The notes under the pieces were generated by a model. It ran no database searches. It saw only the letters and a program-made list of their open reading frames with translations, and had not been told where the DNA came from. 60,065 nucleotides of DNA, taken from IMG/VR virus record IMGVR_UViG_3300025120_000052, positions 1-60,065 of that record, one strand, 5' to 3'. This stretch comes from a virus (taxonomy: Duplodnaviria > Caudoviricetes). This document shows positions 1 to 25,503 of this stretch, piece by piece; position 1 is the first letter of the stretch, and every line of letters begins with the position of its first letter. Position numbers and translations under genes: made by a program.

Positions 1-146
1 ATTTATTCGAAGCACCTAACCCAACAGAGGATGTTAGTGTTGAGGTTGAGGTCATGGAGCCTTCAAGTACGCGGACTCAACCGATTCAAGTTACTCCTGA
101 TAGCCCCACTCAGGGCGGCATCAATAAAGAGAACAGAGAACTACAA
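1..146 (+). repeat. Terminal direct overlap, copy 1 (circular assembly junction)
   Basis: Identical to 59920-60065 except position 20 (c) vs 59939 (a). Confidence 0.97.
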
Positions 147-3100
147 GAGGTAAACCAAGCGGAGATGGACAAGGCTCTTGTTGAGCAAGACCTTGTAAGG
201 AAACAAGAGAAATCTGCTCAGCTTGATACAGCACGAGCCATTGAACTTGGTAAAGAATCTACCAAGGCTATGCTTGCTCAAGTAAATGAAGAACTCATCT
301 CACTAGAAGAAGAAGAGGTAGTTCCTAAATTGAGAAGTCTATTTAAAGGACGAGGGTTTACGTTTGAAGAAACAGGTATCGGAGATAAAGTTCGTGTCCG
401 TACTACGGACGGGATGCACTCGTTAGATATTTCTTTAGACAACTTCCTCAACTCTAGCGATGTGGCAGAGTCTGCTGAACTGCAGACGTTTTTGCGTACC
501 CACATTAACCCTGAAATTGCAGCACCTAACGAAGACCAAATCAGCAAGGCTTTGCGTGCACAAGAGATGCGCGATTCAGAAAGATGGAATGATGACGGCA
601 CCGCATCTACGGTAAAGTTCATGTCCTATGAAGAGGATGGGGTATACAAAGTAGCACCCACTTTATTTCCTAGGAGTACCGTACAGAAGTCAAGTCCACG
701 TCAAGGTGATTGGCTAGAACTTGAGGGCGATGAAGCTATCAGAGAAGCTGAACGTCGAGGTGAGGTATTTAATTTTACTTCAGAAGAAGAGGCGGAGGCT
801 TTTGCTAAAGGCTCTTGGAAGACCACCAATGTCGTTGACATAGAGGCTCAGAAATTTTACAACGGCTACGGAAGGGATTACTTGTCAGACCGTAATGCCT
901 ACGACAACTACATGAACGCTCGTGACGCTCGTATTTTTCTTGAAGAGCAAATCGAAATCTCAGAAGACAATAGGTGGGGAGGAGTGGGTCAGTATCAGGA
1001 CTTGTCTCCTCAAGAGCAGGAGCAATACGCTGAGTATTTTAGAGAAGACGGAAGCCTTCGAGGAGATGCTGCAGAGATAGCCGAGAAATTAGATGATGAA
1101 GCGGCTGAACTATGGAAGATAGTTGACGGAAATGATTTCCGAGTGGCTCAAGAAGACTTGGATGTTTTCTTAGAGAAGCGGCATAAAGCATCTGCTCAGA
1201 CCGCAGCCAACATGAACTACGAGGCGAGAGCCATAGAGCAAGGGCTTTCAAACCAAGCACTAAATGAGTTTGGTATTACTCTAGACCAACTCACTACTTA
1301 TGAGCCTAAGTCTGCAGCCGAGCGTCTCAGACTAGATGAGATGATTAAGGTGGAGAATAGTGTTCGTGCTACTAAAACAGCAGCCGCTTTAAAATATGAG
1401 ACTGCCCTAACGTATTACGATACCAAGGCAAACAAAGACATAGGTGTAGAATTTACAGATAACCTAGAAGGGTGGGCTACAGCTACTGCTGATGGATACA
1501 AAAATGGTAAGGCCGCACAAGAGTTGCTTTACTTAGCTATGGGAATCTATGGGGAAGATGAGGTTGAGCAACGGTTAGCGGCTGAACGTATGACTGAGTG
1601 GATGAACTCAGTAGACGGAAGGCAATCGCGTGCCATGTCCCGTTTTGATTCTGCTGAAGATGGATTCAATAGAGAGGTAAGGAGCGCAATTGCTCGCGAC
1701 CCGTTTGAAGTAATGCTCACATGGGCGGCATCATCACTGTCTCAGATAGTTCCTTATGGTGCTAAGATTATTCCTTCCTTTGTTGGTGTAGGCGCAGGTA
1801 TTGGTGCAGCTTATGGAGCAGCAGGATTTAATCCCGTAACAGTTGCCGCAGGTGCAGGCACGGGGGCAACATGGGGATTGCGTACAGGATTTGCAGCTAC
1901 CAACCTTGTATTGGAATACACTAACGGTGTGCTTGACGCGGGCCGTGAGCAGGGATACAATATGAACGACCCTCAGGATGCCGCAAGAGCATTCTCTGAC
2001 TCAGAGGTTTGGGAGCGAGGTCGCGAAAGAGGTTTGAAGCGTGGCATACCCATTGCCGTAATGGATATTTTCATGGGCGGATTGGCGGGTAGAATTTTTA
2101 AACCTGTTGCTGTTGCGAGTAAAGCACGAAAAATAGGAGCATTTGCCGCAGAGCGTGCTATCGTTGACCCTACCGCAGAAGCTACAGGTGAGTTGCTTGC
2201 ACAATTAAATGTAGGCGACGAGATTTCAATCAAAGAAATCATGGCTGAGTTTGGTGGTGCAGTAGGAAACCAATCAAGCAATGCCGCTGTAAACATTTAC
2301 CGGTCTACTCGTGGAGGATACAATCAACGTATCGCTCAGAACATGATGGATGTAAGATTAATGGCGGCAGATGGAGCCACTGACTCTCAGATTCAAACGT
2401 GGACAAACAACATGAAAAAGCTAGGCAAGATTACGCCTGAGCAAGCGCAGAAAATTTTAGAAAATGTAGGGATACGTCGTGAAGCCAATGAACTTCTTGG
2501 GGTTACTGCTCCGTCTAGAATTGGAATTGGAAAAAAGAAACGAGCAAGGGTAATGGAACTGCTTGATGTACGAGCAGGTCTTCAATCATCTACTAATACT
2601 CGCGAGATTTTTTCTACAGAGATTAAAGCGATTAACGAAGAGTTGGCCGCTATTAGTAGAACCAACAATCTCGTGGAGAGTCCTGTCAATCTAGACAACA
2701 TCAACAGGAGAGATGGCCTTGGAAGACGTACCGTTCCAAGCTATAGAATTGGAAACACTTTGTACTCAAAGAATGATTTTCTTTCTTACATCGAAAACCT
2801 TAGTCCTCGAAGAGCGAACAAGATTTTAAAGGACAGTCAAGTAATTAATGACGAAGAAACTTCTCTCCTAGTCGAGGAGAAACTAAAACCATTTGTTTCG
2901 CAAGAGACAACAGAAACTACAGAAGATGCCATTCAAGAGCGAAGCACAGAGACGGTGGATGTACAAGAACAAACCACAGATGGCGAAGCAGTGGGAGAGC
3001 GAAACCCCGTCGGGGAATTTACCGAAGAGGTTGAAGTCGAAGACCAAGTTGGGGAGACGACGAGCGAGGAGACAAGCGAGGAAGTCTTAGACCAAGACAC

Positions 3101-6100
3101 TCAAGAAGCTGTTGATTTAGAAGCTGCCGACCTAGAGCAATCATTGGGTCTTGAGCCTGTGGCTGAACAGCCTGTGGCTGAACAGCCTGTGGCTGAACAA
3201 CCTGTGGCTGAACAACCTGTGGCTGAACAAGATAAGGACGCTCTTGTTCTCAGGTCTAACAAAGCGGAGCGGGAAGTAAAAGAAGTAAAGAATGACTTTA
3301 AAAAACAACGAGCAAAAATTAAAAGGCGTAAAGCATCGGATGCGAAAGACGCAGCATTAGCTGCTTTGGATACAGAAGAATCAACTGCTATTGAAGAAAT
3401 ACGTAAAGACTCTAGGATAGTAAAGGCAGCAATTTCCGTCGCAATGGGCAAAGGGTTGCCTAAGTTTGCACAGAAAGGAGGCAAGTTTGAGGCCACCGCA
3501 GAACAGCTACAACGAATAGCTTCTTTGGCGGGGGTTGAGGTAGAGACTATTACAGAAAGTGAGAGTTCAAACTCTCGTCCTGAATTTAGATTGAAGGGTG
3601 AGTCTCTTGAGTTACCTCAAAACGAAACCGACGCTGAGACTGTGGCTGTTCTTGAAGCCATGAATGAGGTGGGTGCTCAAATGGAAGCCGAACAGAATCA
3701 AGAGTTGTCCGACATTGATTCTCGTTTAAAGCTGAACAAAAATGATGCAGGTAAAACTCTTACCGTTGCTCAAAGAAAGACTCTTACTCAACGGGCCGAT
3801 GAGTTAAGACAGCGAGGTCGTGCACGAGACACTGAGTCTACCGCCACACCAATTGATATGGATGAGTTGAACTCTCGCCTTGACAATCCTCTCCCTACTA
3901 TCGAATGGAAAGTAGTAGAGGGCGTGCCTATGATTTTTAATATCTCCGACCAATTGCGTACGGGAGATGTAACGAATCCTGCCACAGGCAATACCATTGA
4001 TAACCTAAAGGGCGGCCTTGGGTTTACAGGAGTAGAGGGTCATCAAGATATGGCATGGGCTAGTGTTACTCGTGATAAAGCACAGGGTCAAATTGATAAC
4101 GCGACTAAAGTATACAACGACAACAAAGAGTTCTTTACTCGTTGGTGGAAAGCTAACCCTGAGTATAATGGGTTGGTTCCTATGGCTATTGTAAAGATGG
4201 GTCAGTCTTCTATCCTCAGTAATGAAGCGGTAGTTAGAGTTCTTGGTGACAACATTTCAGCGTTACCAATAGCCCGCAGAAAGAAAGCAGTAACGGCTTT
4301 TAAAAGAGCGGTCAAGGAGTCGATTAAGATTAAGCAAGACGCTATTAAGTCAGGAGTAAAAGAACTTACACAGAAGCAGTATGCTGCCTACATAAAGGAT
4401 GCTCAAGATGTTCTTGCTATGGTTGACGTGGTTAAGCCCACGACCATTGAGCAAATACTCACACCTGAAGCATTGTCTAATCTAAAAGGTATAACCTCTG
4501 TCAATGTTATTACTGATTTGGTAATGTCAGGTCAGCCTAATGAAGTTGGTGAGAAAAAGCGAAAGCCTTCTTACTCCTTTAAAACAGCTAAGGCTGTAAT
4601 AAAAGTTTTGCTTGGAGAGAATCCAACTGAAGAGCAGAAAAAACTTTTAAATGCAGGTGTGATTACTGACTTGATTACAGAGCCACAACTAGAGGGTGTA
4701 CCTCAGCGTTCGGTATTTATGGTTCAAGGAGTGGACGTTTTGAATCCTGAGGTTTTAGAAACTAATCACCCCAACTATCCCGTTGGGCCAAGAGGTAGAA
4801 CTATTGGTGTGTTGGAGCAACCTCAATCCGTGGTTGATTTGTTCCCTGCTGTAGCAAACAATGTTCAGCTTGGTATTGCTCAAGAACAACAAGGGAGACC
4901 TAGCCGTAGTGAACGTAGCCGATTGACTCAAGTGATTCCTGTTCAAGCAGGTATGCCTAACACAGAATTTGTAGGTGCAATCGCGGGCGTTGAAAATACA
5001 GTAAGCGTACTTGACTTTTTGAACCGCTCTTTCCCTAGTGTCACGTTGTCTACAGACACCGAGACATTCTCCAATGTCATGGCATCAGAGGGAGTAAGAG
5101 AGTATCTCAAAGGAGATGAGATTGTGTATGGTGTAACCAAGGACGGAGACATCTATCTAAACCCTGATGTACACAGTAGCGAGTCGGCTCTTTACAACAC
5201 CGCTGTGCACGAGTTCGGCCACGTTTGGACTGACTACCTGCAGACCACAAAGAAAGGCCGTGAGATTTACTCTAAAGGCGCGTCTTTGGTTACTCAGACA
5301 GCAGAGTATCAGAACCAATTAAAGAAATTTAAAAGTGAGGGACTCACTGAAGAAGAAGCAAAGAAGAGAGCCGTAAATGAAACGATGGCAATACTCATTG
5401 GAAACAAGGGGGAGACCATCATCAACGCTTCGCTCAAGCAGAAATTCCAAGCATGGCTTAACGCAACGTGGACATACATCAAGGAGACATTTAAAATGTC
5501 CAAGGATTTATCTCCTGAGGAGATTCAAAACCTTACCCTTGATGAATTCTTAGGCACAGCCCTTGCTGATATTATGAGCGGCAAGCCACTGAAGCTAACA
5601 GAGTCTCAATCTAAAAAGCTAAAGAATCCGGAGGCGGCTTTTAGTAGGTCAGACTCTATGGCTGACATCATAGCAAGAGGCAGGGCTGAAGGATTTTCAG
5701 AGGCATCTATCCGTCAGGTACTTAGGTCAAGAGGTCAGAAGGTAGCCGACATCAACGCGGCTATGTTGATGAGCATGGATTTGTTTAGCGATGCAGTGGT
5801 TCCATTTGAGTTTGGAAACATTGAAGGAGGAATGGATGCAGGTATCCAACTCTTCCAACAAGTTCAATCAGAACTTGCTGCCTTTGCGCAACCTACAGTT
5901 ACCCGAACTAGTCAACGGATGAGTGCGGCAGAACGTCGCGCAAGACTTGCTGAGTTAAGAGAGAACAACCCAACGCTGTTAGAGTTGTCTGATGCAGCAT
6001 TGCTCAGAAGGTTTCCGCGTCGTGGTGTAGCTGTAGAAACCACCACTACAGAAAAGACACCCGGTGAGATTCGACAAAAGGCTCTTGAGATTTTGCGTGC

Positions 6101-9100
6101 TAACCCTACGTATCAAGCGCAGACCGAAGCGCGGCAGATGGAGTTAGCTGTTGCGTTGGACAGAGCCATTGGTATTGGTGCAAATCGAAATGTATCTAAA
6201 GAGATACGTGCTATTCGAGGGACGCTGACTCAGCGTAAGCGAGCCGTACGTGAAGTCCAATCAGTCAAGCGTCAACTACGTCAGCTTATTCGTAAATCTT
6301 TACCTAAGTCAGATGGCTATAGCCAAGCCGACATCAATAAGATTGTACGTTCTGTCGAGCGTGTTAACGAAGATAACTTCAGAGTAGAAGTAGAGAAGGT
6401 TCTTCAGGTAGTAGAAAAGCAACGGGCCAAACTAAGGAAGAAGACTCTAAAGAAGTTGATGGCCGACGTAACTCGTGGAGCAAAGAAAACTACTACCGAC
6501 ACCAAGAAGAGCCGAGCAGGTTCACTGAGCGCACAGGGACAATCGTTTGCTGCACAGTTTAAGCGTGCTCTTAAACTTGCAATGGCATCTGATGCCAAGC
6601 AAGAGGATGCAATGGAGAAGTTCATGCAACTAGCCGAGGAACTGCAGACGGATGAAGCTATTGTGGCCTTGGCTAAGAGCGCATCCGGAGAAGTCTTGAC
6701 CTCAAAAGAAGAAAGCATTGTTAACCTAGCCGTTGCTCTAGACCTTGTAAAGAACCTACCGAACATGACGTTGGAAGAGGTTCAGGCATTGGCTAATGAC
6801 TACGCTGTTGCAGCCTCAAGGTCAAGACAGGAGTTATCTGAAAGCCGTAAAAAACGTGCGCTTGAGAACGATGCTCTAAGAACTAAAGTAACAGACGCAA
6901 TGCGTCGTTCGAATCCTGATTTGTTTGATTCAGATGGAAACATTATCGGACAGAACAGAAGGAGAGCCATGCTTGATGACGTTCGAAGGTATTGGAACGA
7001 GGGTAAAGGCCAAGGCTTGTCCGCCCGTATGAGGGGCCAAGCTAAAGCCGCCAAGCTGTACGTTGAAACATACAAATGGCGAAGTGCGTTTCAAGCCGTC
7101 AAGTCTTTGATGGATGGGCTAAAGCATCTTGGTACATTCATGAACTCCATGAACGATACGCTGTACGATGAGGTCTTTAATCGCCTCAACAAGATGGACA
7201 ACAATGCGTTGAAAGGGAGGTTTAATCAAACTAAAATCCTTAATGACTTAGGCTTTGAAGAAGTTCAACAGACTTTGTTCGACAACAAAACGCTGACCAT
7301 TGAAGGGGTTAGAGAATCTAAAACAGGGAAGACATACACTGATTCGTTTAGTAAAGACCAACTGCTTAGAATCTATGCGCTATCTCTGAACCCCGTTCAA
7401 AGAAAGAAACTAGAAGAGCAGGGTTTTACCACTGATAAAATGAATGAGATTAAATCATTCTTAGGCAAAGACGCTACAGACTTTGCAGACAAGGTGGTGA
7501 ACTATCTAAGCAATGAGTACTACGAAAGCGTGAATGATGTATACCGAGAAGTAAATGACATCAACCTTAACTACGTAGAGAACTATTTCCCAACGATTAC
7601 AACTCAAGCTGAGGTTAATCCAAAGCAATTATTTGAAGGTGACTTCAACGGAATCTTTAACGCAGAGAGTGCGCCTGCCCTGAGAAATCGTGAGGACATG
7701 AAGAGTGACATTGCTTTGAAGGCAGCAAACTTTACATCTGCACTTACCTCTCACATGGAAACGATGGAGAGATACAAGGCATACGCTGATGGAGCAAAGA
7801 AGCTAAACGTAATCTTCAGCACTGATGCAGTAGACACTGCGCTTACTATGCTTGGAACTAAGTCTATGGTTAAGCAGTCCGTTAACAATGCAGTTAACCC
7901 TGATTCAGCCAAGACAGCGTTAAATCAATCAGGTAAACTGTTTAACATTTTGCAGACTCAGTTTACTTCTTTTGCTCTTGCATTCCGTGTAGTTCAAATA
8001 GGCAAGCAGGCCACATCATTCATCAATGCATTTGAGAACTACTCGTTCCGAAAGAGTGGCAAACAAAATACATTGGTTGACCTGCTTCCATTCCTGTATG
8101 ACTACGCATCGGTTATCGCACGCTCTAGGTCTTACCACAACCTAGCAATGGAGATGTCTCCTACGTATCGCTACCGTGTAGAGCAGGGCATTGCTGCTGA
8201 CCTATCAGGTCTTGAGGCGGGTTCACCTACAAGGACAGGGTTTGAACAGCGTCAGACAACGGACGCTAAGCTGTTTAGAAAGTTCAAGACAGCGGCTGCA
8301 TCACCTACTATCTTGGGTGACTTGATGGGTGTGGCCGGATACATGGCTAACTATCGTCGCAACATTCGTAATGGCATGAGCGAAGAGAAAGCTGCTGAAG
8401 CATTCAATGAGTTCAACCAAACACAGCAAAGTAGAAGAGCGACAGAGAAGTCCATTATTCAACAGAACAGCAACTACATCGTGAGGGCTTTCACTATGTT
8501 TGGTTCGACTCCAATTCTGTACATCAACAATGTGATGCAGGCGTTGAACAACATCATCAGTCCCAAGAAAAAAACTACCACTCAAGATGTGAGAAAGCTA
8601 GTGTTAAACCTTGGCGCGGCTAACGCGGCATTCGTTGCTATGTCTAACCTTGGAATTCTTTTGCGAGGAGATGACGAGGAAAAGAAAGAAGTGTTGCGTC
8701 AAATACGAAACGCAACGCTTGGTCTTAATCTTCTCTACCAAGTTCCATTCATGGGTACGGTTGCCAAGTCAGCAGAGAATTGGATTACAGGCAAGCGAAG
8801 ACCAACAGACATTGGAGTCAATCCTTTTGTGTCTCTGTTCCGTAAAATGAAGAAGGCCGCAGAGGACGACAAGGCTGTGAGCGGTGCTCTTAAGACAGTG
8901 GTTGAGATTGGCGTAGGCGCACAGCTTGACCCGTTCATAACACTGCTCGAACAAGCACGTGACATGGATGAGGTAGAGATGCGTGAGGTCTACGACATCA
9001 TTGGCTACTCTGAATCATACCGACCTGAGGTAGATAAGGAAGGATACAGAGAACTAACTCCACGGGCAAAGAAAGAACAGGAGAAGAAGGAACGAATCAA

Positions 9101-9200
9101 AGAAAAGCAAGAGAGTAATCCCGCCTTCATGAGGAGAAAAGAAAAGGAAAAGGAGGCGCGTAAAAAGCGCAGAGACCTAGAGAAGTTTGGAAGAGATTAG
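54..9200 (+). CDS. Giant virion/ejection (polyvalent-type) protein with zincin HExxH motif; true start at 59688 across the junction (~3143 aa)
   Basis: 3048-aa ORF, open upstream into 59688; AVHEFGHVW at ~5208-5222; Gly/Ala-rich hydrophobic segment; last of three large genes after the tail genes. Confidence 0.8.
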   Translation: MEPSSTRTQPIQVTPDSPTQGGINKENRELQEVNQAEMDKALVEQDLVRKQEKSAQLDTARAIELGKESTKAMLAQVNEELISLEEEEVVPKLRSLFKGRGFTFEETGIGDKVRVRTTDGMHSLDISLDNFLNSSDVAESAELQTFLRTHINPEIAAPNEDQISKALRAQEMRDSERWNDDGTASTVKFMSYEEDGVYKVAPTLFPRSTVQKSSPRQGDWLELEGDEAIREAERRGEVFNFTSEEEAEAFAKGSWKTTNVVDIEAQKFYNGYGRDYLSDRNAYDNYMNARDARIFLEEQIEISEDNRWGGVGQYQDLSPQEQEQYAEYFREDGSLRGDAAEIAEKLDDEAAELWKIVDGNDFRVAQEDLDVFLEKRHKASAQTAANMNYEARAIEQGLSNQALNEFGITLDQLTTYEPKSAAERLRLDEMIKVENSVRATKTAAALKYETALTYYDTKANKDIGVEFTDNLEGWATATADGYKNGKAAQELLYLAMGIYGEDEVEQRLAAERMTEWMNSVDGRQSRAMSRFDSAEDGFNREVRSAIARDPFEVMLTWAASSLSQIVPYGAKIIPSFVGVGAGIGAAYGAAGFNPVTVAAGAGTGATWGLRTGFAATNLVLEYTNGVLDAGREQGYNMNDPQDAARAFSDSEVWERGRERGLKRGIPIAVMDIFMGGLAGRIFKPVAVASKARKIGAFAAERAIVDPTAEATGELLAQLNVGDEISIKEIMAEFGGAVGNQSSNAAVNIYRSTRGGYNQRIAQNMMDVRLMAADGATDSQIQTWTNNMKKLGKITPEQAQKILENVGIRREANELLGVTAPSRIGIGKKKRARVMELLDVRAGLQSSTNTREIFSTEIKAINEELAAISRTNNLVESPVNLDNINRRDGLGRRTVPSYRIGNTLYSKNDFLSYIENLSPRRANKILKDSQVINDEETSLLVEEKLKPFVSQETTETTEDAIQERSTETVDVQEQTTDGEAVGERNPVGEFTEEVEVEDQVGETTSEETSEEVLDQDTQEAVDLEAADLEQSLGLEPVAEQPVAEQPVAEQPVAEQPVAEQDKDALVLRSNKAEREVKEVKNDFKKQRAKIKRRKASDAKDAALAALDTEESTAIEEIRKDSRIVKAAISVAMGKGLPKFAQKGGKFEATAEQLQRIASLAGVEVETITESESSNSRPEFRLKGESLELPQNETDAETVAVLEAMNEVGAQMEAEQNQELSDIDSRLKLNKNDAGKTLTVAQRKTLTQRADELRQRGRARDTESTATPIDMDELNSRLDNPLPTIEWKVVEGVPMIFNISDQLRTGDVTNPATGNTIDNLKGGLGFTGVEGHQDMAWASVTRDKAQGQIDNATKVYNDNKEFFTRWWKANPEYNGLVPMAIVKMGQSSILSNEAVVRVLGDNISALPIARRKKAVTAFKRAVKESIKIKQDAIKSGVKELTQKQYAAYIKDAQDVLAMVDVVKPTTIEQILTPEALSNLKGITSVNVITDLVMSGQPNEVGEKKRKPSYSFKTAKAVIKVLLGENPTEEQKKLLNAGVITDLITEPQLEGVPQRSVFMVQGVDVLNPEVLETNHPNYPVGPRGRTIGVLEQPQSVVDLFPAVANNVQLGIAQEQQGRPSRSERSRLTQVIPVQAGMPNTEFVGAIAGVENTVSVLDFLNRSFPSVTLSTDTETFSNVMASEGVREYLKGDEIVYGVTKDGDIYLNPDVHSSESALYNTAVHEFGHVWTDYLQTTKKGREIYSKGASLVTQTAEYQNQLKKFKSEGLTEEEAKKRAVNETMAILIGNKGETIINASLKQKFQAWLNATWTYIKETFKMSKDLSPEEIQNLTLDEFLGTALADIMSGKPLKLTESQSKKLKNPEAAFSRSDSMADIIARGRAEGFSEASIRQVLRSRGQKVADINAAMLMSMDLFSDAVVPFEFGNIEGGMDAGIQLFQQVQSELAAFAQPTVTRTSQRMSAAERRARLAELRENNPTLLELSDAALLRRFPRRGVAVETTTTEKTPGEIRQKALEILRANPTYQAQTEARQMELAVALDRAIGIGANRNVSKEIRAIRGTLTQRKRAVREVQSVKRQLRQLIRKSLPKSDGYSQADINKIVRSVERVNEDNFRVEVEKVLQVVEKQRAKLRKKTLKKLMADVTRGAKKTTTDTKKSRAGSLSAQGQSFAAQFKRALKLAMASDAKQEDAMEKFMQLAEELQTDEAIVALAKSASGEVLTSKEESIVNLAVALDLVKNLPNMTLEEVQALANDYAVAASRSRQELSESRKKRALENDALRTKVTDAMRRSNPDLFDSDGNIIGQNRRRAMLDDVRRYWNEGKGQGLSARMRGQAKAAKLYVETYKWRSAFQAVKSLMDGLKHLGTFMNSMNDTLYDEVFNRLNKMDNNALKGRFNQTKILNDLGFEEVQQTLFDNKTLTIEGVRESKTGKTYTDSFSKDQLLRIYALSLNPVQRKKLEEQGFTTDKMNEIKSFLGKDATDFADKVVNYLSNEYYESVNDVYREVNDINLNYVENYFPTITTQAEVNPKQLFEGDFNGIFNAESAPALRNREDMKSDIALKAANFTSALTSHMETMERYKAYADGAKKLNVIFSTDAVDTALTMLGTKSMVKQSVNNAVNPDSAKTALNQSGKLFNILQTQFTSFALAFRVVQIGKQATSFINAFENYSFRKSGKQNTLVDLLPFLYDYASVIARSRSYHNLAMEMSPTYRYRVEQGIAADLSGLEAGSPTRTGFEQRQTTDAKLFRKFKTAAASPTILGDLMGVAGYMANYRRNIRNGMSEEKAAEAFNEFNQTQQSRRATEKSIIQQNSNYIVRAFTMFGSTPILYINNVMQALNNIISPKKKTTTQDVRKLVLNLGAANAAFVAMSNLGILLRGDDEEKKEVLRQIRNATLGLNLLYQVPFMGTVAKSAENWITGKRRPTDIGVNPFVSLFRKMKKAAEDDKAVSGALKTVVEIGVGAQLDPFITLLEQARDMDEVEMREVYDIIGYSESYRPEVDKEGYRELTPRAKKEQEKKERIKEKQESNPAFMRRKEKEKEARKKRRDLEKFGRD
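2926..3090 (+). CDS. Small basic protein MPFKSEAQRRWMY..., overprinted in another frame of the giant gene
   Basis: 54-aa ORF with ATG after an A-rich leader; resembles a small phage protein family I recall as stand-alone genes (MPFKSxAQRRWM...WExETP). Confidence 0.55.
   Translation: MPFKSEAQRRWMYKNKPQMAKQWESETPSGNLPKRLKSKTKLGRRRARRQARKS
3156..3230 (+). repeat. 15-bp tandem repeat x5 (CCTGTGGCTGAACAR; PVAEQ)
   Basis: Five consecutive copies seen directly. Confidence 0.97.
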
Positions 9201-19195: not shown

Positions 19196-20266
19196 TTAAA
19201 AATTAAACCTAAGAACTTCCTCTTCAGTGAACTCACCTCCGCATCCCGTACAACTGTACGTTCCGCTTGGGTATTCTTCAGCAACGAGGTCGTTGTAGCA
19301 CTCAACACAAAAGGGTGAATTGTTTTCCTTCAGTTCGGGCCATTTCTCTTCTTCGAGGTCATCCCAAAGCAAGGACTGATTGCACTCAGGTACAGGCGCA
19401 ACGATTACTCGTTTCTTTGGGACAATGCCAAAGGACTTATGGAACTTTGCGCTAGGCAGGTGCTCGGTGTCGTTGAAGTAAATCCAACAGTTGATAAGCC
19501 TGCCGTCCTTCATCTTGATAGGCACTTGAGTTCTGCGATACCATTGAGGATGCCCTTCGAGTAGGTCAAGGTCTTTGAACGTAGCATCGGTAACCTTGAA
19601 CACATCCACCTCTACGTTGTGACCAATACCCTTCTTAGACAAGAGGTAAGGCAGGCCGTTGATGATTAGTGGATACTTGTCTTGGGTAACTCCCGCGCCT
19701 ACAAACTTCTCGCGTCTGAGATAGTTCATGTAGTTGCCATGACCACGCTTCAACGTGCCGTACACAGCAACGACGTTGTCCATGAGAACGTTGGCTTTGG
19801 AATACCAAATGCCATCACGCTTGATGTACAGGTCACGATTGTAAATCTGAAAGGACTTGTCTCTCGTGTTGATGCTGACGAACCGTGAGTCATGCTGTTC
19901 CAACTCGGCCTTCCATTGACTGCGAGGCATAGAGCCTAGCTTCTCAGCCAACACCTTGCTGTCGCACTTCTCCTTTGTACCGATGCCCTTGATTGTTCCG
20001 TTCTGCATGAGTAACTCATGGCTCTGCTCACCACATATGAATGGGTGAGTGTTAGCCCTGCCTACCGCACCTACGGTGGCATACCTGAAGTGAGCGATGA
20101 ACGGACGTTCGGTTAGTAGTTGCTCGTAATCCTCTGACTCATGGTATGTTGTCTCGAATGTGTCGAGGAATGTAATACCCAACCCGTGAGGGTTGATGCG
20201 AGCGGAGTTTTCCAACACCTCACGAGATATGGTGTTGGCCTTTTGTTTAATGATAATCACACACAT
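19196..20266 (-). CDS. Class II glutamine amidotransferase fused to gamma-glutamylcyclotransferase (GGCT/AIG2-like) with C-terminal Zn ribbon
   Basis: N-terminal MC, NPHG.G, HFRYAT.G, N.HPF, NGTI; VAVYGTLKRG, LD.LEG.P.WY.R; CxxC...CxxC. Confidence 0.88.
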   Translation of the reverse strand: MCVIIIKQKANTISREVLENSARINPHGLGITFLDTFETTYHESEDYEQLLTERPFIAHFRYATVGAVGRANTHPFICGEQSHELLMQNGTIKGIGTKEKCDSKVLAEKLGSMPRSQWKAELEQHDSRFVSINTRDKSFQIYNRDLYIKRDGIWYSKANVLMDNVVAVYGTLKRGHGNYMNYLRREKFVGAGVTQDKYPLIINGLPYLLSKKGIGHNVEVDVFKVTDATFKDLDLLEGHPQWYRRTQVPIKMKDGRLINCWIYFNDTEHLPSAKFHKSFGIVPKKRVIVAPVPECNQSLLWDDLEEEKWPELKENNSPFCVECYNDLVAEEYPSGTYSCTGCGGEFTEEEVLRFNF

Positions 20267-21671: not shown

Positions 21672-21952
21672 GATTGTGAGACTAAGTCGGTGCTGAAGTC
21701 CTTTGAGCCGATAGTGTATCCGCCCATCGCATCGTGCAGTAGCACTGCTTTAGGTTCGATGCCGACCTGCTTGAGGTGAGCGAGTGCTTGACGAAGGATG
21801 TCACCAATCTCGTAGTCATACGAGAGGAAGACTCGCTTGTTGTTTCGCATATCCTTGACGCGAACACGCGCACCTCTGTGGTTTGTGGGGCCGAAGAACT
21901 CTACGTGAAAGGCACGCAGTCTGTCGTACTCCATTGATTCCATGATAGTCAT
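21668..21952 (-). CDS. Hypothetical early protein
   Basis: F.GPTN.RGARV.V.D motif seen in phage early proteins; start reassigned. Confidence 0.65.
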   Translation of the reverse strand: MTIMESMEYDRLRAFHVEFFGPTNHRGARVRVKDMRNNKRVFLSYDYEIGDILRQALAHLKQVGIEPKAVLLHDAMGGYTIGSKDFSTDLVSQS

Positions 21953-21959
21953 GATGAAT

Positions 21960-22076
21960 TTATTTTGATTCGAGTAAAGCGAGTTGATAGTCCATCTCAC
22001 CTACCACTGCCCAAAGGGCAATGAATAGGATGAATCCGATGGTGATTTTGATGGCCTGCTTGGTATCTGTGCTCAT
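21960..22076 (-). CDS. Small single-TM protein (38 aa)
   Basis: MSTDTKQAIKITIGFILFIALWAVVGEMDY. Confidence 0.6.
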   Translation of the reverse strand: MSTDTKQAIKITIGFILFIALWAVVGEMDYQLALLESK

Positions 22077-22080
22077 GGCC

Positions 22081-22263
22081 TTACGAGTTGTGAGAGTTTG
22101 AACTCTCGTTTTCACTTGCCCTCCGCTTGAAGTAGGCAAGCGATTCACTACAGCGTTCTTCGCTGTAGCGTGCGCTATCTCCGAGGATAAGAGCGCGGCC
22201 AAGTTGTTCAGTCCAAAAGGTAATCTTGCCTGCGTAGTTGTCGTTGATTCTGTTACGTCGCAT
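22081..22263 (-). CDS. Small hypothetical protein (60 aa, MRRNRIND...)
   Basis: ATG downstream of the promoter at 22310-22341. Confidence 0.6.
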   Translation of the reverse strand: MRRNRINDNYAGKITFWTEQLGRALILGDSARYSEERCSESLAYFKRRASENESSNSHNS

Positions 22264-22309
22264 GAGAGAGAGTGTTGTGGTCAGAGCGACATTGCCCCTT
22301 CCGTTTGTG

Positions 22310-22341
22310 TAAAGATAGTACAATACTTGTCTAATTCCAAA
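22310..22341 (-). promoter_or_regulatory. Bacteroidota-type early promoter
   Basis: TTTG-N20-TATCTTTA; very similar to the 20317-20348 promoter. Confidence 0.7.
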
Positions 22342-22374
22342 TGTAATGTACAAAAAGTTATTAACAATCGTTTG

Positions 22375-22521
22375 TTAATCGTTGATGAATAGTTCATCCA
22401 AGTTGTAACCCTTCGTCCGCTTGATGTAAGCGATGAAGTTGTCGATGTGCCTGCGGTCTTTGAACTCGCGAGTAACATACCAAGAGCGTCCGCCTGTGTA
22501 GAATGAGATTGTAGCTTTCAT
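22375..22521 (-). CDS. Small hypothetical protein (48 aa, MKATISFYTGG...)
   Basis: Hand-translated; A-rich leader. Confidence 0.65.
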   Translation of the reverse strand: MKATISFYTGGRSWYVTREFKDRRHIDNFIAYIKRTKGYNLDELFIND

Positions 22522-22531
22522 GTTGATTGAT

Positions 22532-22615
22532 TTAGGATACGAGATAGGTTAAGACGAGCAATGTGGTAGTGGCGATACGGAAAACCCACTTGACTTGTGA
22601 TTCGATATTGTTCAT
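22532..22615 (-). CDS. Tiny hydrophobic peptide (27 aa, MNNIESQVKW...)
   Basis: Fills the gap downstream of the ribozyme; start uncertain. Confidence 0.4.
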   Translation of the reverse strand: MNNIESQVKWVFRIATTTLLVLTYLVS

Positions 22616-22653
22616 GACGTTTCGATGGTAGGCCATCACCCGTTTGTTGGTTT

Positions 22654-22707
22654 GCTGTTTCGACTCTTTTGAGTCATCATCAGGAGCGATACACATCGCC
22701 CGACAGC
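22654..22707 (-). ncRNA. Type III hammerhead ribozyme (HHR-B)
   Basis: Minus strand GCUGUC^GGGCGAU-GUGU-AUCGCUC-CUGAUGA-U-GACUC-AAAA-GAGUC-GAA-ACAGC: three stems, core and GUC triplet, with one extra U after A9. Confidence 0.85.
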
Positions 22708-22740
22708 GGGACGAGAGTTTGAACTCTCGCCCCATCCCAC

Positions 22741-23757
22741 TCACCAACGAGGAAGGGAGACTCGCCCGTAGTGCTGTGGGTCTCGGCTCGCGGCCTCAGT
22801 CACCTCAGCCATCCTCCGTCGAGCACATCGTGTGTGCGCGTCAGGGAAGAGGTTGCCGTGGCGGTCAATCCAAGGCATCACCTCAGCGTTGACCTTGCCC
22901 GTTGCGATGAACTTGTCGAAGGACTTGCTCAACTCAATCACCATCGATGCCTTGTTCGTATCAGGCTCGTACATGGCGTTGATGATTGGAGTGAAGCGTC
23001 TGCGAACTTGAGCAGGAGTCTGACCTTTGACTGCTCCGTCAACCAAAACGTACATCAGGTCGTAGCGTAATCGCATCTGACGAACTGAAGTGATGCGAGA
23101 TGGGATGCGGAACTCAACTGCGTTGTCCATCACCTTCGCTACGCTGTACTTGCCTCCCCAACCTGAGCGTCCTGCTCGGCCAAACATCTCACCACGTTGC
23201 TCGTAAGGAAGCATCGTGATGTTGTTGCCTACGTAGTGATTGCTGATGCGGCCTCGGAACAAGGCTAGGATGATTCCGCAGTGGTTGCGCATCGCGGCCA
23301 TCAATTCCTGTCCGCTCATGCCTTCAACCGAGATTGTCATGTGGCCTCCACAGCTTGAGTTGCTTGGGCTGTAGCTGTCATCAATCACGCGCTCGGCTTG
23401 GTGCATCATGTCGTACACCTTGGTGCGCCATGCACACGCAGGTAGCAAAGGCAAGATGTTGGTAACGGCCTCGTAGCCACATGACGAGTCTCGCTCGAAT
23501 CCGCAGAACAACGGATACTCACGAACTGCGCCACGAGCGATTCGAGTCTTCTCAACTTCGAACCCGATGCCGTACTTAGCACCGACTGATGTTGCTGTTT
23601 GCATTTCGAGCGCATTTCGGTCAAGCGGATTGAGACCGATTGCGTCTGTGAGAGATGCTCCCTTGCGGAAATCACGGAAAGCAGGCTTGCTGTGGTATCC
23701 GCTCATTTCGCCCCTTCGAGGAACGTTGTCGTTGGTGTACTGAACTCCTTGTATCAT
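22741..23757 (-). CDS. Putative amidoligase (COOH-NH2 ligase, glutamine-synthetase-like fold)
   Basis: IGFEVE, DSS..YE..T, SCGGHM.IS, KY...., VEFR motifs. Confidence 0.75.
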   Translation of the reverse strand: MIQGVQYTNDNVPRRGEMSGYHSKPAFRDFRKGASLTDAIGLNPLDRNALEMQTATSVGAKYGIGFEVEKTRIARGAVREYPLFCGFERDSSCGYEAVTNILPLLPACAWRTKVYDMMHQAERVIDDSYSPSNSSCGGHMTISVEGMSGQELMAAMRNHCGIILALFRGRISNHYVGNNITMLPYEQRGEMFGRAGRSGWGGKYSVAKVMDNAVEFRIPSRITSVRQMRLRYDLMYVLVDGAVKGQTPAQVRRRFTPIINAMYEPDTNKASMVIELSKSFDKFIATGKVNAEVMPWIDRHGNLFPDAHTRCARRRMAEVTEAASRDPQHYGRVSLPRW

Positions 23758-23780
23758 GACCTTGTGTTTTAGTCAGGTTT

Positions 23781-23831
23781 GCTGTTTCGTCCTTTTGGAC
23801 TCGTCAGGCAGAGCACTCACTCTGCGACAGC
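23781..23831 (-). ncRNA. Type III hammerhead ribozyme (HHR-A)
   Basis: Minus strand GCUGUC^GCAGAG-UGAGUG-CUCUGC-CUGACGA-GUCC-AAAA-GGAC-GAA-ACAGC: canonical CUGANGA/GAAA core, perfect stems. Confidence 0.92.
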
Positions 23832-23867
23832 GGAAGTGAGAGTTTGAACTCTCACTCCCTTTGTGCC

Positions 23868-24542
23868 TCAGGAGACAAATGCCGCAACTCTCAACTCAAT
23901 GCCTGCGAACGCAGCAAACGCAATGATTGATTCGGCTAGTTCCTCACGGCTGTTGGTCGTATCAACAACTCCGTTCACATCGCAGTTGGCTACGATGTTT
24001 CCGCTCACGGGATGCTTAAAGCGGAACTGACCAAGGTTCGCTGATGCCGTTGGTGTAGCTTCAACCTCAGCCTCTTCGATGGCCTCTTCTATCTCCGCTC
24101 CTGTCTCCTCAACTTCGTCAAGCAAAGCGCGCGACCATTTGTCGAAATGCTGAATGGAACGTGGTGCTTTCTCACCTGCTCCTGCCAACCTAGTCTGCTC
24201 TCGCTTGTACTTGGTGAGCAGTGTTGGATGCTCGTCGATGCGAGTCTGAACTCGGACTAGCAGGTCAGGAGTTGTTCGTGCTCCGTAGCGCAATGCCTTC
24301 TGAACGAACTCGGTCTTGTTCCATGCACTTCCCAAGGCTTCCTCCATCTCAGCCTTGGCGGAGTCTGATGCGAACCAAGCGTATGCGGCTTGAAGATGCT
24401 TGGCCTGTTTGAGGCTTGCTTCGAATGCGGCCTTGCGGCTGTCGGTCTCAGCATCCTGTGCGCTGTGGAGTTGAGAGATGCTTCCTGATTCGAAGCGGAT
24501 TGAAGCGATAAACGCTGTCTCGATTTGCAGTAAATTTTGCAT
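23868..24542 (-). CDS. First early gene, hypothetical protein
   Basis: 224-aa ORF just after the divergent non-coding region. Confidence 0.8.
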   Translation of the reverse strand: MQNLLQIETAFIASIRFESGSISQLHSAQDAETDSRKAAFEASLKQAKHLQAAYAWFASDSAKAEMEEALGSAWNKTEFVQKALRYGARTTPDLLVRVQTRIDEHPTLLTKYKREQTRLAGAGEKAPRSIQHFDKWSRALLDEVEETGAEIEEAIEEAEVEATPTASANLGQFRFKHPVSGNIVANCDVNGVVDTTNSREELAESIIAFAAFAGIELRVAAFVS

Positions 24543-24602
24543 AACTTGTTGATTTTGAGCACTTTAGCTCGGTAATTGGCCTTCATTAGTTCGGGCCGTG
24601 GT

Positions 24603-24633
24603 GCAATATACGTCTAAATTCTGTCTATTCAAT
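24603..24633 (-). promoter_or_regulatory. Putative early promoter
   Basis: ATTG-N19-TATATTGC; shares an AGACA element with the other two early promoters. Confidence 0.5.
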
Positions 24634-24639
24634 GGTCAG

Positions 24640-25060
24640 AGCACAACTTTCTTTTGCATCCGTCTTCGCTACCTGCGCTCAGCACAGCACGACAGCGATG
24701 GACAGCGAACTGCTCACTGCGGATTGTTAGTCATGCAGGCAGGCAGGCAGATGCTAAGGGAAGGCTCTGCTTCCCTGTGAGAGTTCAAACTCTCTCCGCT
24801 AGGCTAGGCGGAGCAAGGGATGCAGGGAGAGCGCAACCTGAGAGCGCAACCGAACGTCCGACAGACGGACAGCCTACAGCCCTACGTGGACAGGCGATGC
24901 AGGCGGACAGGCCGTCAGGAAAATCGCCAAAAAATCTGCGATGCGGATTTGGGAATGGCAATCGGCTCGAAAAAAAAAATCGGTTTGGTGAGGGGGGTGG
25001 CATGCGCGCGACGGGGGGGAGCCTAAATACTACACACATCTAAAGAAAAATATATGCCTT
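24640..25060. other. Divergent non-coding control region, possible physical genome end or packaging region
   Basis: GC-rich, short repeats, A10 and G6-7 tracts, no credible CDS, strand switch point. Confidence 0.5.
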
Positions 25061-25090
25061 ACCTTAGCGGTGTACTAAAACAGAAACGTT

Positions 25091-25264
25091 ATGGATGGAC
25101 TTACAATTAAAGATGGTCGCTTAATAAACAACCGACCTGATGGGGAAACAGGGATTGCAATGGCCGCCCGTTTGCGCAGGAATGTTAAGCGTATGGAAAA
25201 GATTTCAATGATTGCCGATGGCATTGAAGCAGCAGAAATGCGAAAAGGAATTAGGTTGATGTAG
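25091..25264 (+). CDS. Small hypothetical protein (57 aa, MDGLTIKDGRL...)
   Basis: Hand-translated; TACCTTAG promoter-like motif at ~25060; hairpin downstream. Confidence 0.65.
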   Translation: MDGLTIKDGRLINNRPDGETGIAMAARLRRNVKRMEKISMIADGIEAAEMRKGIRLM

Positions 25265-25289
25265 TGTCCATGCATTGATTGATTGAGAG

Positions 25290-25328
25290 AGGAAGGGGTA
25301 GCTAACAACCATAGTCTACCCCTTTCTT
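25290..25328 (+). terminator. Putative terminator hairpin
   Basis: AAGGGGTAG...CTACCCCTT followed by TCTT. Confidence 0.45.
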
Positions 25329-25337
25329 ATGCTCTCT

Positions 25338-25503
25338 TGTGTCGTCCTGATGTCGGTTTTGTGTCGTTCTAAAATTTGTAACTAATTGATTCTCAGTCTT
25401 CATGTCGATAATGCTTATTTTTAAATCACGTATGTATTCTTTTTTAAAAAGAATACTCTCTCTCTCTCTCTCTATATGCAGCTTTAGTTTTTGTCATTCG
25501 ACA
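25338..25503. other. Putative replication-origin-like element B
   Basis: Same motifs and spacing as element A (TAACTAATTGATT, TGTCGATAATG, CATTCGACA). Confidence 0.55.

What the first reader, a model, noticed from the sequence alone, without database searches (positions are those of the whole stretch)
22702..23825. Ribozyme-excised 1124-nt RNA could self-circularise into a protein-coding circular RNA
Seen: the two hammerheads have identical stem III strands (5' GCUGU, 3' ACAGC) although their other stems differ. Double cleavage would release 23825 to 22702 (1124 nt). That fragment begins with stem I, core, stem II and ACAGC of HHR-A, contains the whole amidoligase ORF and ends in GCUGUC>p from HHR-B. 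Inference: the 3' end can pair with the 5' ACAGC and rebuild a complete chimeric hammerhead across the junction. This is the geometry viroid-like RNAs and retrozymes use to circularise, by reverse reaction or an RtcB-type ligase. A DNA phage making an exonuclease-resistant circular mRNA for one enzyme would be a system I do not know to be described. The identical stem III could also simply reflect duplication.
Basis: inference. Interest (0 to 1): 0.85.

Follow-up and report, generated by a model that had tools for sequence, protein, structure and literature searches.

The report
Two hammerhead ribozymes flanking phage gene
Two genuine self-cutting hammerhead RNAs bracket one early gene of an uncultured 60-kb phage, a layout known in phages since 2011 that most likely cuts a long transcript into single-gene messages, and comparison with related phages argues against a circular mRNA.

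Summary
Two type III hammerheads lie on the minus strand (23831-23781 and 22707-22654). Both have stem III GCUGU/ACAGC, and they cut after 23826 and 22702, which would release a 1124-nt RNA holding the whole 338-aa ORF. ViennaRNA predicts that the ends of this fragment pair and rebuild hammerhead A (P 0.87-0.98).

Among 65 clusters of ORF homologues, 39 have only a downstream type III ribozyme. Four have a type I ribozyme upstream, which cannot form a chimera. Eleven have III+III. Of those 11, 9 have compatible chimeric stems, against 74% for random pairs (p 0.42). The closest distinct relative (84% identity) and another relative have broken stems.

86% of 83 type III ribozymes directly follow a stable hairpin, against 13% of control windows. 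This points to ribozyme-made, hairpin-capped mRNA 3' ends.

Hammerheads flanking phage genes were published in 2011, and circles were sought then and not found (PMC3088659). This scan has seen the layout repeatedly on other DNA. The one RNA run found gave no cover of the junction.

Verdict: a new member of a known kind, of low interest.

The parts
24605..24632 (-). Sigma-70-like promoter match (TTGAAT-16-TATATT) ahead of the leftward early genes. Possible start of the polycistronic transcript.
   Evidence: the only promoter-like match in 21800-25500 (1 found, 2.8 expected from shuffles). This is a consensus match only and weak evidence.
23868..24542 (-). Upstream ORF (224 aa, no family match). 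Its stop codon TGA lies at 23870-23868.
23832..23859 (-). Hairpin A: 11-bp stem and UUCAAA loop, a copy of the genome-wide palindrome. After cleavage it would be the 3'-terminal structure of the upstream RNA.
   Evidence: Stable hairpins precede 86% of 83 type III hammerheads in relatives, against 13% of 260 control windows.
23781..23831 (-). Hammerhead A (type III). Stem III is 23831-23827 with 23785-23781. It cuts between 23826 and 23825.
   Evidence: (RF00008, 42.7 bits), (R1, 78.7 bits; the MFE is the hammerhead fold, -20.5 kcal/mol).
22741..23757 (-). ORF of 338 aa (P0001) with a predicted glutamine-synthetase-like (carboxylate-amine ligase) fold and no Pfam or PHROG match.
   Evidence: AF2 model pLDDT 90.4. 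Foldseek best E 6.7e-5 to GmaS/GS/PafA/Dop with TM 0.25-0.32. VIA-align Z up to 8.8 over 168-200 residues, all glutamine-synthetase superfamily.
22708..22733 (-). Hairpin B: 10-bp stem and UUCAAA loop, another copy of the palindrome with compensatory outer pairs. It would be the 3'-terminal structure of the excised mRNA.
   Evidence: (paired with P > 0.99 in the excised fragment).
22654..22707 (-). Hammerhead B (type III, with an extra U between A9 and stem II). Stem III is 22707-22703 with 22658-22654. It cuts between 22702 and 22701.
   Evidence: R1, 59.4 bits; the MFE is the hammerhead fold, -20.1 kcal/mol. An identical sequence occurs in relatives L002/L009, L087, L090, L093 and L095. Rfam does not hit it.
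22702..23825 (-). Predicted double-cleavage product, 1124 nt, with a 5'-OH and a 2',3'-cyclic phosphate (ends inferred from hammerhead chemistry).
22532..22636 (-). Small downstream ORF (34 aa, hydrophobic). It is the first gene on the RNA that begins with the body of hammerhead B.
   Evidence: in frame with the listed ORF 22532..22747; read by eye.

Best explanation
The two hammerheads are processing signals in a polycistronic early transcript of the phage. Each sits in a composite module made of a stop codon, a stable palindromic hairpin, a type III hammerhead, and the ribosome-binding site of the next gene.

Self-cleavage 8 nt past the hairpin gives the upstream RNA a hairpin-capped 3' end carrying a 2',3'-cyclic phosphate. 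The downstream RNA starts with a 5'-OH and the compact ribozyme body. The glutamine-synthetase-like gene is thereby released as its own linear 1124-nt mRNA, so its stability and translation are uncoupled from its neighbours.

Shown: the ribozyme motifs, their conservation and covariation, their confinement to the coding strand and to this gene neighbourhood, and the hairpin association. Inferred: cleavage in vivo, and the effect on stability.
For: (1) Both motifs are complete hammerheads. In 88 family members 96.0% of pair cells are standard pairs, against 71.3% in shuffles, and 12 of 16 pairs change on both sides. Caveat: the rows were picked by a scanner that demands pairing.

(2) Strand and place. 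All 104 R1 matches of 50 bits or more in the window plus 80 loci lie on the ORF's strand. My scanner found 0 minus-strand hits in 80 plus 23 loci. In four whole relative records (45-61 kb), the 2-5 hammerheads per record all lie within about 1.2 to 2.7 kb around this gene.

(3) The conserved element is the ribozyme just after the ORF. A type III hammerhead lies 14-59 nt past the stop in 54 of 65 clusters.

(4) Type I and type III hammerheads replace each other at the same upstream site (4 against 12 clusters). What is kept is a cut, not a topology.

(5) 86% of 83 type III hammerheads are directly preceded by a hairpin of -10 kcal/mol or stronger, against 13% of 260 control windows. For type I hammerheads, which themselves stay on the upstream product, the figure is 9% of 23.

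(6) No promoter-like or terminator-like site lies on the minus strand between 24605 and 22110.

(7) Perreault et al. 2011 describe clustered hammerheads flanking single genes in prophages. They showed cleavage of such arrays in vitro and, for one array, in E. coli, and they proposed processing into single-gene mRNAs (PMC3088659, passages). The 2019 review PMC6765202 repeats this view (passages).
Against: No RNA data show cleavage in this phage. The one metatranscriptome run found holds only two 151-nt contigs at 22376-22653.

HHR-A is below Rfam's curated cut-off, and HHR-B is not found by Rfam at all.

Ten of 65 clusters have no ribozyme on either side of the ORF. One of the ten, L055, is a miscall of mine: its ORF has an early stop, and a type III hammerhead follows the tblastn match. 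So the cut is dispensable for the gene.

Whether a 5'-OH or a cyclic phosphate stabilises or destabilises RNA depends on the host's RNases, and the host is unknown.

Identical stem III occurs in 5 of 11 III+III clusters, against 14% of random pairs (naive binomial p 0.012). Those pairs are no more alike in stems I and II than random pairs. Plain processing does not predict this. It loses significance when partners are permuted among the 11 clusters (p 0.14).
Confidence: 0.72

Rival explanations
1. Circular mRNA. After double cleavage, the 3' GCUGUC>p pairs with the 5'-proximal ACAGC. The ends are then joined, either by the reverse hammerhead reaction or by a host RtcB-type ligase, giving an exonuclease-resistant circular message for the ligase-like enzyme.
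For: The geometry is right in this phage. The chimeric junction would be identical to hammerhead A for 8 nt upstream of the cut. ViennaRNA puts the five chimeric pairs at P 0.87-0.98 in the excised fragment. The values are 0.82-0.93 in relative L094. Both ends would have the chemistry that RtcB joins (recalled knowledge). Identical stem III occurs in 5 of 11 III+III clusters, against 14% of random pairs, without higher similarity in stems I and II.
Against: - The arrangement is not conserved. 39 of 65 clusters have no upstream ribozyme, and 4 have a type I ribozyme there.
- The chimeric stem is broken in L088 (84% identity) and L091.
- Predicted end pairing is 0.2 or less in 7 of the 9 III+III lineages folded: the window and 8 relatives; L057 and L076 were not folded.
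- Compatibility of 9 of 11 does not exceed the 74% null (p 0.42; permutation p 0.20). For other adjacent III-III pairs it is 8 of 16.
- The downstream ribozyme keeps GCUGU/ACAGC in relatives whose upstream partner is type I, so it is not kept to match a partner.
- A circle would carry a complete hammerhead A. The predicted fold does not sequester it, so the circle should cut itself again (inference).
- The phage encodes no RtcB. None of the 28 ORFs scanned matched an RNA-ligase family.
- Perreault et al. 2011 looked for circular products of phage hammerhead arrays and detected none (data not shown there).
Confidence: 0.06
2. The hairpin-plus-hammerhead modules are mainly boundaries of exchangeable gene cassettes, or semi-selfish repeats. 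They mark where recombination shuffles early genes between phages, and cleavage matters little for expression of this gene.
For: Ribozyme type and sequence at the same site differ between close relatives. The downstream ribozyme of L088 is unrelated in stem I to that of the window, although the ORF is 82% identical in DNA. The 163 bases from hairpin B onward are 89% identical to L003, whereas the ORF matches at about 72%. Ten of 65 clusters lack ribozymes altogether.
Against: The catalytic cores are intact, and the stems covary in 88 copies, which argues for selection on cleavage. The strict coding-strand orientation and the fixed position between stop codon and next start fit an RNA-level role. 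This role could coexist with processing.
Confidence: 0.1
3. Cleavage is a down-regulating or conditional switch. The ribozymes expose ends that speed decay of the flanking RNAs, or they cut only under certain ionic conditions, setting the dose of the ligase-like enzyme early in infection.
For: Perreault et al. 2011 raise regulated cleavage for phage hammerheads. The effect of a 5'-OH depends on the host: it is destabilising where RNase J1 acts (recalled from work on the glmS ribozyme).
Against: The hairpin placed exactly at the new 3' end looks like protection, not exposure. No aptamer-like insertion is present: stems and loops are minimal, with conserved loops.
Confidence: 0.1

Closest known systems
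Clustered hammerhead ribozymes flanking single genes or short gene blocks in prophages (Perreault et al. 2011, PLoS Comput Biol, PMC3088659; passages read)
   Same: Several hammerheads on the coding strand, in intergenic gaps of a phage genome, bracketing individual genes. Processing of a long transcript into single-gene mRNAs was proposed. Circular or spliced products were considered.
   Different: Here the ribozymes are type III (type I in relatives) in uncultured aquatic phages of about 60 kb. They are anchored on one glutamine-synthetase-like gene, and each type III copy directly follows the phage's own genome-wide palindromic hairpin. I did not see that coupling mentioned in the passages I read. 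The paper's supplementary figures were not available to me.
Viroid-like RNAs and retrozymes (hammerhead-bounded units that become circular RNAs; reviews PMC7761336 and PMC6765202, passages read)
   Same: Two same-type hammerheads in direct orientation. The excised unit has a 5'-OH and a 2',3'-cyclic phosphate. In this phage its ends can rebuild one hammerhead.
   Different: Those units are non-coding or replicating. They are repeated in tandem with identical ribozymes, and host ligases circularise them. Here the two ribozymes differ, the unit is an ordinary phage mRNA, the pairing of ends is not conserved in relatives, and no circle has been seen.
RNase III processing sites between genes of T7-like phages (recalled knowledge, no call)
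   Same: A long phage transcript is cut between genes, leaving hairpin-ended 3' termini thought to protect the upstream mRNA.
   Different: The cut here is made by the RNA itself, not by a host enzyme, and it leaves a 5'-OH and a cyclic phosphate rather than a 5'-phosphate and a 3'-OH.

Membership tests
Hammerhead ribozyme, type III (Rfam RF00008) | Conserved core CUGANGA ... GAAA with a U-H cleavage site after stem III | tested here: met
   Both sites carry CUGA(C/U)GA, GAAA and GUC|. HHR-B has one extra U after A9.
Hammerhead ribozyme, type III (Rfam RF00008) | Three-way junction with stems I and II closed by loops and stem III open | tested here: met
   The MFE folds of both are exactly this. 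The scanner gives stems of 7, 4-5 and 5 bp.
Hammerhead ribozyme, type III (Rfam RF00008) | Stems supported by compensatory changes in relatives | tested here: met
   88 sequences. 12 of 16 pairs change on both sides, and the covariation score is 0.706 against 0.216 in shuffles. Rows were preselected for pairing, which inflates the percentage paired.
Hammerhead ribozyme, type III (Rfam RF00008) | Score at or above Rfam's curated gathering cut-off (48.5 bits) | tested here: not met
   HHR-A scores 42.7 bits and HHR-B has no hit. This is a curation threshold and does not define the fold. Relatives of the same family score 31.6-47.1 bits.
Hammerhead ribozyme, type III (Rfam RF00008) | Self-cleavage activity | not testable with these tools
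   Needs in vitro transcription or RNA-end mapping.
Hammerhead-bounded circular RNAs (viroid-like RNAs, retrozymes) | Ends of the excised unit can rebuild a complete hammerhead | tested here: met
   In the window the chimeric stem III has 5 bp, with P 0.87-0.98.
Hammerhead-bounded circular RNAs (viroid-like RNAs, retrozymes) | That end compatibility is maintained across relatives (co-variation of the paired ribozymes) | tested here: not met
   9 of 11 III+III clusters are compatible, against 74% for random pairs (p 0.42). L088 and L091 are broken. Four clusters have type I upstream, and 39 have no upstream ribozyme.
Hammerhead-bounded circular RNAs (viroid-like RNAs, retrozymes) | Circular junction observed in RNA | tested here: inconclusive
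   One RNA run was found. It holds two contigs at 22376-22653 only, with no joints.
Hammerhead-bounded circular RNAs (viroid-like RNAs, retrozymes) | An alternative fold that silences the ribozyme in the circle | tested here: not met
   The MFE of the 1124-nt unit keeps stems I and II and the chimeric stem III of hammerhead A intact. This is a thermodynamic prediction only.
Hammerhead-bounded circular RNAs (viroid-like RNAs, retrozymes) | A ligase for 5'-OH and 2',3'-cyclic phosphate ends is available | tested here: inconclusive
   There is no RtcB match in the phage record, and none of the 28 ORFs scanned matched an RNA-ligase family. The host is unknown.
Clustered phage hammerheads flanking genes (Perreault et al. 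2011) | Two or more hammerheads on the coding strand, in intergenic gaps of a phage genome, bracketing a gene | tested here: met
   The record is a complete virus genome by CheckV.
   P0001 had no Pfam match at E up to 0.01 and no PHROG match at E up to 0.001. In the scan of the 24 A1 members at E up to 1, the best match of any member was 0.047 and none was to an amidoligase or GS family. The profile had no PDB sequence match better than E 0.75.
   AF2 model pLDDT 90.4. Foldseek top hits are GmaS, GS, PafA and Dop, best E 6.7e-5, TM only 0.25-0.32. VIA-align Z is 8.0-8.8 for 44 chains, and the 50 rows listed are glutamine synthetases, GmaS or YbdK-type ligases. The strength is moderate.

The most novel reading that the evidence does not exclude
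In this phage lineage (the window, L087 and perhaps L094), the III+III arrangement with matching stem III lets part of the excised 1124-nt message close into a translatable circular mRNA, by reverse hammerhead ligation or by a host RtcB. This would be a lineage-specific gain on top of ordinary ribozyme processing.
Probability: 0.05. Interest if true: 0.75.

Novelty: new member of a known kind. Interest (0 to 1): 0.25.

Why it matters
If the circle existed, it would be the first natural protein-coding circular mRNA made by a DNA phage. The comparative evidence makes that unlikely.

Three modest additions remain.
- A large family of aquatic phages anchors hammerheads on one glutamine-synthetase-like early gene.
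- Type I and type III hammerheads are interchangeable at the same site.
- Type III copies are systematically coupled to a hairpin that ends 0-2 nt before the ribozyme.

This coupling fits the idea that phage hammerheads make protected mRNA 3' ends. It gives a testable design rule for a class of ribozymes whose biological role is still called elusive in reviews.

Tried and rejected
RNA evidence. The look-up of sequencing runs returned one metatranscriptome run with a 0.10 share of the words. When laid, it gave two 151-nt contigs at 22376-22653, no joints and no cover of the ORF or either cleavage site. It says nothing for or against cleavage or a circle.

Other searches that gave little:
- Rfam at gathering threshold over the window found nothing.
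- The phage GenBank collection gave one weak match (MW202828.1, 6% of a 4-kb query, 69.6% identity), so there is no annotated close relative.
- ARAGORN found no tRNA. I had asked whether the UUCAAA hairpins belong to tRNA-like genes.
- Other ribozyme classes in place of a missing upstream hammerhead: Rfam at E up to 0.01 on 20 loci without an upstream ribozyme found only RF00008 hits, 12 in all, all downstream.

Whole-ribozyme duplication as the cause of the identical stem III: rejected. The window's pair is 50% identical in the stem I hairpin, against a random-pair mean of 55%.

Literature. Six searches listed no paper reporting a circular mRNA made by paired hammerheads in a DNA phage. I read passages only, using find mode, of PMC3088659, PMC6765202, PMC7761336 and PMC13725137.

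Recalled without a call: the Iyer/Aravind amidoligase work, RtcB's substrate ends, RNase J1 and the glmS product, T7 RNase III sites, and natural hammerheads with an extra base after A9.

Rows dropped. Six of 104 loci without a complete ORF (L067, L090, L092, L093, L108, L109) were left out of the cluster table. L001-L006 duplicate the window or other loci and were not counted. One type III hit (L036:2084-2137) was flagged for an indel and left out of the stem III statistics. CM matches under 45 bits were ignored. L087's whole record was not held, so it was not searched.
Full report
WHAT IS THERE. The window is a whole IMG/VR virus record of 60,065 bases, and CheckV estimates it as 100% complete. 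It is a tailed phage with a P22-like portal, a primase-helicase, an SNF2 helicase, a Sak annealing protein, a GroEL-type chaperonin and an M43 peptidase.

On the minus strand I read the following order:
- a 224-aa ORF ending at 23868
- an 11-bp hairpin (23859-23832)
- a type III hammerhead (23831-23781, cutting 23826|23825)
- a 338-aa ORF (23757-22741)
- a 10-bp hairpin (22733-22708)
- a second type III hammerhead (22707-22654, cutting 22702|22701)
- a 34-aa ORF (22636-22532)

Both ribozymes have stem III GCUGU/ACAGC, and stems I and II differ. The doubly cut product is 1124 nt.

ARE THE RIBOZYMES REAL. Rfam's type III model scores hammerhead A at 42.7 bits (E 1.6e-7). That is under the curated 48.5 bits, which is why the whole-window scan was empty. 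Hammerhead B is missed by Rfam. It has an extra U between CUGAUGA and stem II.

Homologues of the ORF are many: 602 proteins at E up to 1e-3, and 273 relatives in viral contigs, of which I held 80, plus 23 metagenome loci. A simple scanner found hammerheads beside the ORF in most of these loci, always on the ORF's strand and never on the other.

An alignment of 88 distinct type III copies shows invariant core bases and conserved loops. 12 of 16 stem pairs change on both sides. The rows were chosen by pairing, so the 96% paired figure is partly built in.

The U-insert variant recurs with four different, fully paired versions of stem II, so it is a living variant. A covariance model of the 88 (R1) hits the window only at the two sites, at 78.7 and 59.4 bits. 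The window's own two sequences were among the 88. A type I model (R2) hits nothing in the window.

In this phage the geometry works on paper. In the excised 1124-nt RNA, ViennaRNA pairs the 3' GCUGU with ACAGC at positions 41-45 with P 0.87-0.98, rebuilding hammerhead A. The relatives tell a different story.

I grouped 98 loci with a complete ORF into 65 clusters at 90% protein identity:

| Upstream + downstream ribozyme | Clusters |
|---|---|
| none + type III | 39 |
| type III + type III | 11 |
| none + none | 10 |
| type I + type III | 4 |
| type III + none | 1 |

One of the ten 'none + none' clusters, L055, is my miscall caused by an early stop in its ORF. A type III ribozyme does follow its tblastn match.

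A type I ribozyme upstream leaves only six bases of its stem I on the excised RNA, so no chimeric hammerhead can form. The nearest such relatives (L009-L012, L095-L104) still keep GCUGU/ACAGC in the downstream ribozyme. That sequence is therefore not held by a need to match a partner.

Among the 11 III+III clusters, the chimeric stem (downstream 5' strand with upstream 3' strand) has 4 or more contiguous pairs in 9. In L088 (84% protein identity, the closest relative outside the window's own cluster) and in L091 (63%) it is broken at the third pair by C.A. Random pairs of family members from different phages reach 4 or more pairs in 73.9% of 6586 combinations. So 9 of 11 is what chance gives: binomial p 0.42, and permutation among the 11 gives p 0.20. 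Other adjacent III-III pairs, which bracket the next small genes, are compatible in 8 of 16.

Folding the excised fragments of eight further III+III lineages gives end-pairing probabilities of 0.82-0.93 (L094), 0.2 (L089), 0.11 (L035), 0.01 (L034) and 0.003 or less (L007, L068, L088, L091).

One result leans the other way and I report it in full. An identical 5-bp stem III occurs in 5 of 11 pairs, against 14% of random pairs (naive p 0.012). Those pairs are no more alike in stems I and II than random pairs. With partners permuted among the 11 the excess is not significant (26% expected, p 0.14). Stem III has only about a dozen variants, four of which make up 72% of the 82 copies counted. I read this as lineage inertia in a short, slowly changing helix, but I cannot exclude a weak constraint.

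Further points count against a stable circle:
- Its junction would be a complete hammerhead A, which the predicted fold does not hide, so it should cut itself again (inference).
- The phage has no RtcB. None of the 28 ORFs scanned matched an RNA-ligase family.
- Perreault et al. 2011 wrote that cleavage and ligation could yield spliced or circular RNAs from phage hammerhead arrays, but that they detected neither (data not shown; passage read).

Direct RNA evidence could not be had. The single run found covers only 22376-22653.

WHAT IT MOST LIKELY DOES. The conserved feature is a cut just after this gene, and in some lineages just before it as well, made by either hammerhead topology.

The type III copies are tied to a hairpin. 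In the 40 nt ending at the ribozyme, 86% of 83 copies fold to -10 kcal/mol or lower (median -15.5). The figure is 13% for 260 random windows of the same loci (median -5.5) and 9% for 23 type I copies.

This asymmetry makes sense if the aim is a structured 3' end. A type III cut leaves only 6-8 ribozyme bases on the upstream RNA, so a separate hairpin is supplied. A type I cut leaves nearly the whole ribozyme there.

The hairpin is each phage's own genome-wide palindrome. In the window the 12-base core has 40 matches at up to 2 mismatches, counting both strands, against 7.4 expected. Two copies with U-tracts look like true terminators.

In four whole relative genomes, the 2-5 hammerheads all lie within about 1.2 to 2.7 kb around this gene, so this is a local device and not genome-wide punctuation. 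One promoter-like site at 24632-24605, and no terminator-like site on the minus strand before 22110, fit a polycistronic early transcript (weak evidence).

I therefore favour ribozyme processing into single-gene linear mRNAs with hairpin-capped 3' ends (confidence 0.72). Cleavage in vivo and the effect on stability are inferred.

THE GENE. The 338-aa protein has no Pfam, PHROG or PDB sequence match. A confident AF2 model (pLDDT 90.4) matches only glutamine synthetase, GmaS, YbdK, PafA and Dop: Foldseek E from 6.7e-5 with TM 0.25-0.32, and VIA-align Z up to 8.8. A GATase plus gamma-glutamyl cyclotransferase fusion lies 2.5 kb downstream (19196-20266).

COMPARISON AND NOVELTY. The layout belongs to the clustered phage hammerheads of Perreault et al. 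2011. Earlier follow-ups of this scan reached the same verdict on other genomes. It works like those, and like RNase III punctuation in T7 (recalled knowledge). It has the geometry of a retrozyme or viroid unit but fails the test of conserved end compatibility.

The new details are the gene family it is anchored on, the I/III interchange, and the hairpin coupling. My verdict is a new member of a known kind, interest 0.25. The circular-mRNA reading keeps about 5% probability.

Noticed in passing
Loci L007-L109 (for example L010:1061-1112 against window 23831-23781): Type I and type III hammerheads occupy the same site upstream of the homologous ORF in different relatives. L006 has the reverse order, with type III upstream and an apparent type I downstream.
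   Followed up: partly
window 22654-22707; L008:2484-2541; L068:2209-2266; L083:2244-2301; L089 (three copies); L094 (two copies): A hammerhead subclass has one extra base (U, or A once) between A9 and a 5-bp stem II. It recurs with compensatory changes. Rfam RF00008 missed the window's copy; the relatives' copies were not put to Rfam.
   Followed up: partly
L002:2867-2916 (same as L009:1066-1117 and L095:1366-1417): This upstream type I hammerhead reads CCGAUGA instead of CUGAUGA (U4 to C), so it may be inactive. A second type I copy lies 760 nt further upstream.
   Followed up: no
Window palindrome copies (3563, 9204, 12524, 15146, 17755, 19180, 20288, 22094, 22715, 23840, 24781, 31979, 39011, 46142, 55460) and the relatives' hairpins: Each phage uses its own palindrome as the pre-ribozyme hairpin: GAGAGTTCAAACTCTC here, and G5TTCAAAC5 or GTGTCTTCAAAGACAC in relatives. 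The loop is a shared UUCAAA or UUUAAA, so the stems covary around a conserved loop.
   Followed up: partly
window 22570-22732 against L003:3983-4141: The stretch from hairpin B through the start of the small downstream ORF is 89% identical to a relative whose ORF matches at only about 72% in DNA and 50% in protein. This hints at a mosaic junction near the ribozyme module.
   Followed up: no
G001-G004 (whole records of L008, L010, L034, L076): All hammerheads of four whole relative genomes (2-5 each) are confined to about 1.2 to 2.7 kb around the glutamine-synthetase-like gene and the small genes after it.
   Followed up: yes
window 51797-51818 (+): A CTGACGA...CGAAAC core-like string lies inside the 1556-aa ORF. 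Model R1 does not match it, so it is most likely chance.
   Followed up: yes
window 54-9200 (+): An ORF of 3048 aa has no PHROG match at E up to 0.001. I did not study it further.
   Followed up: no
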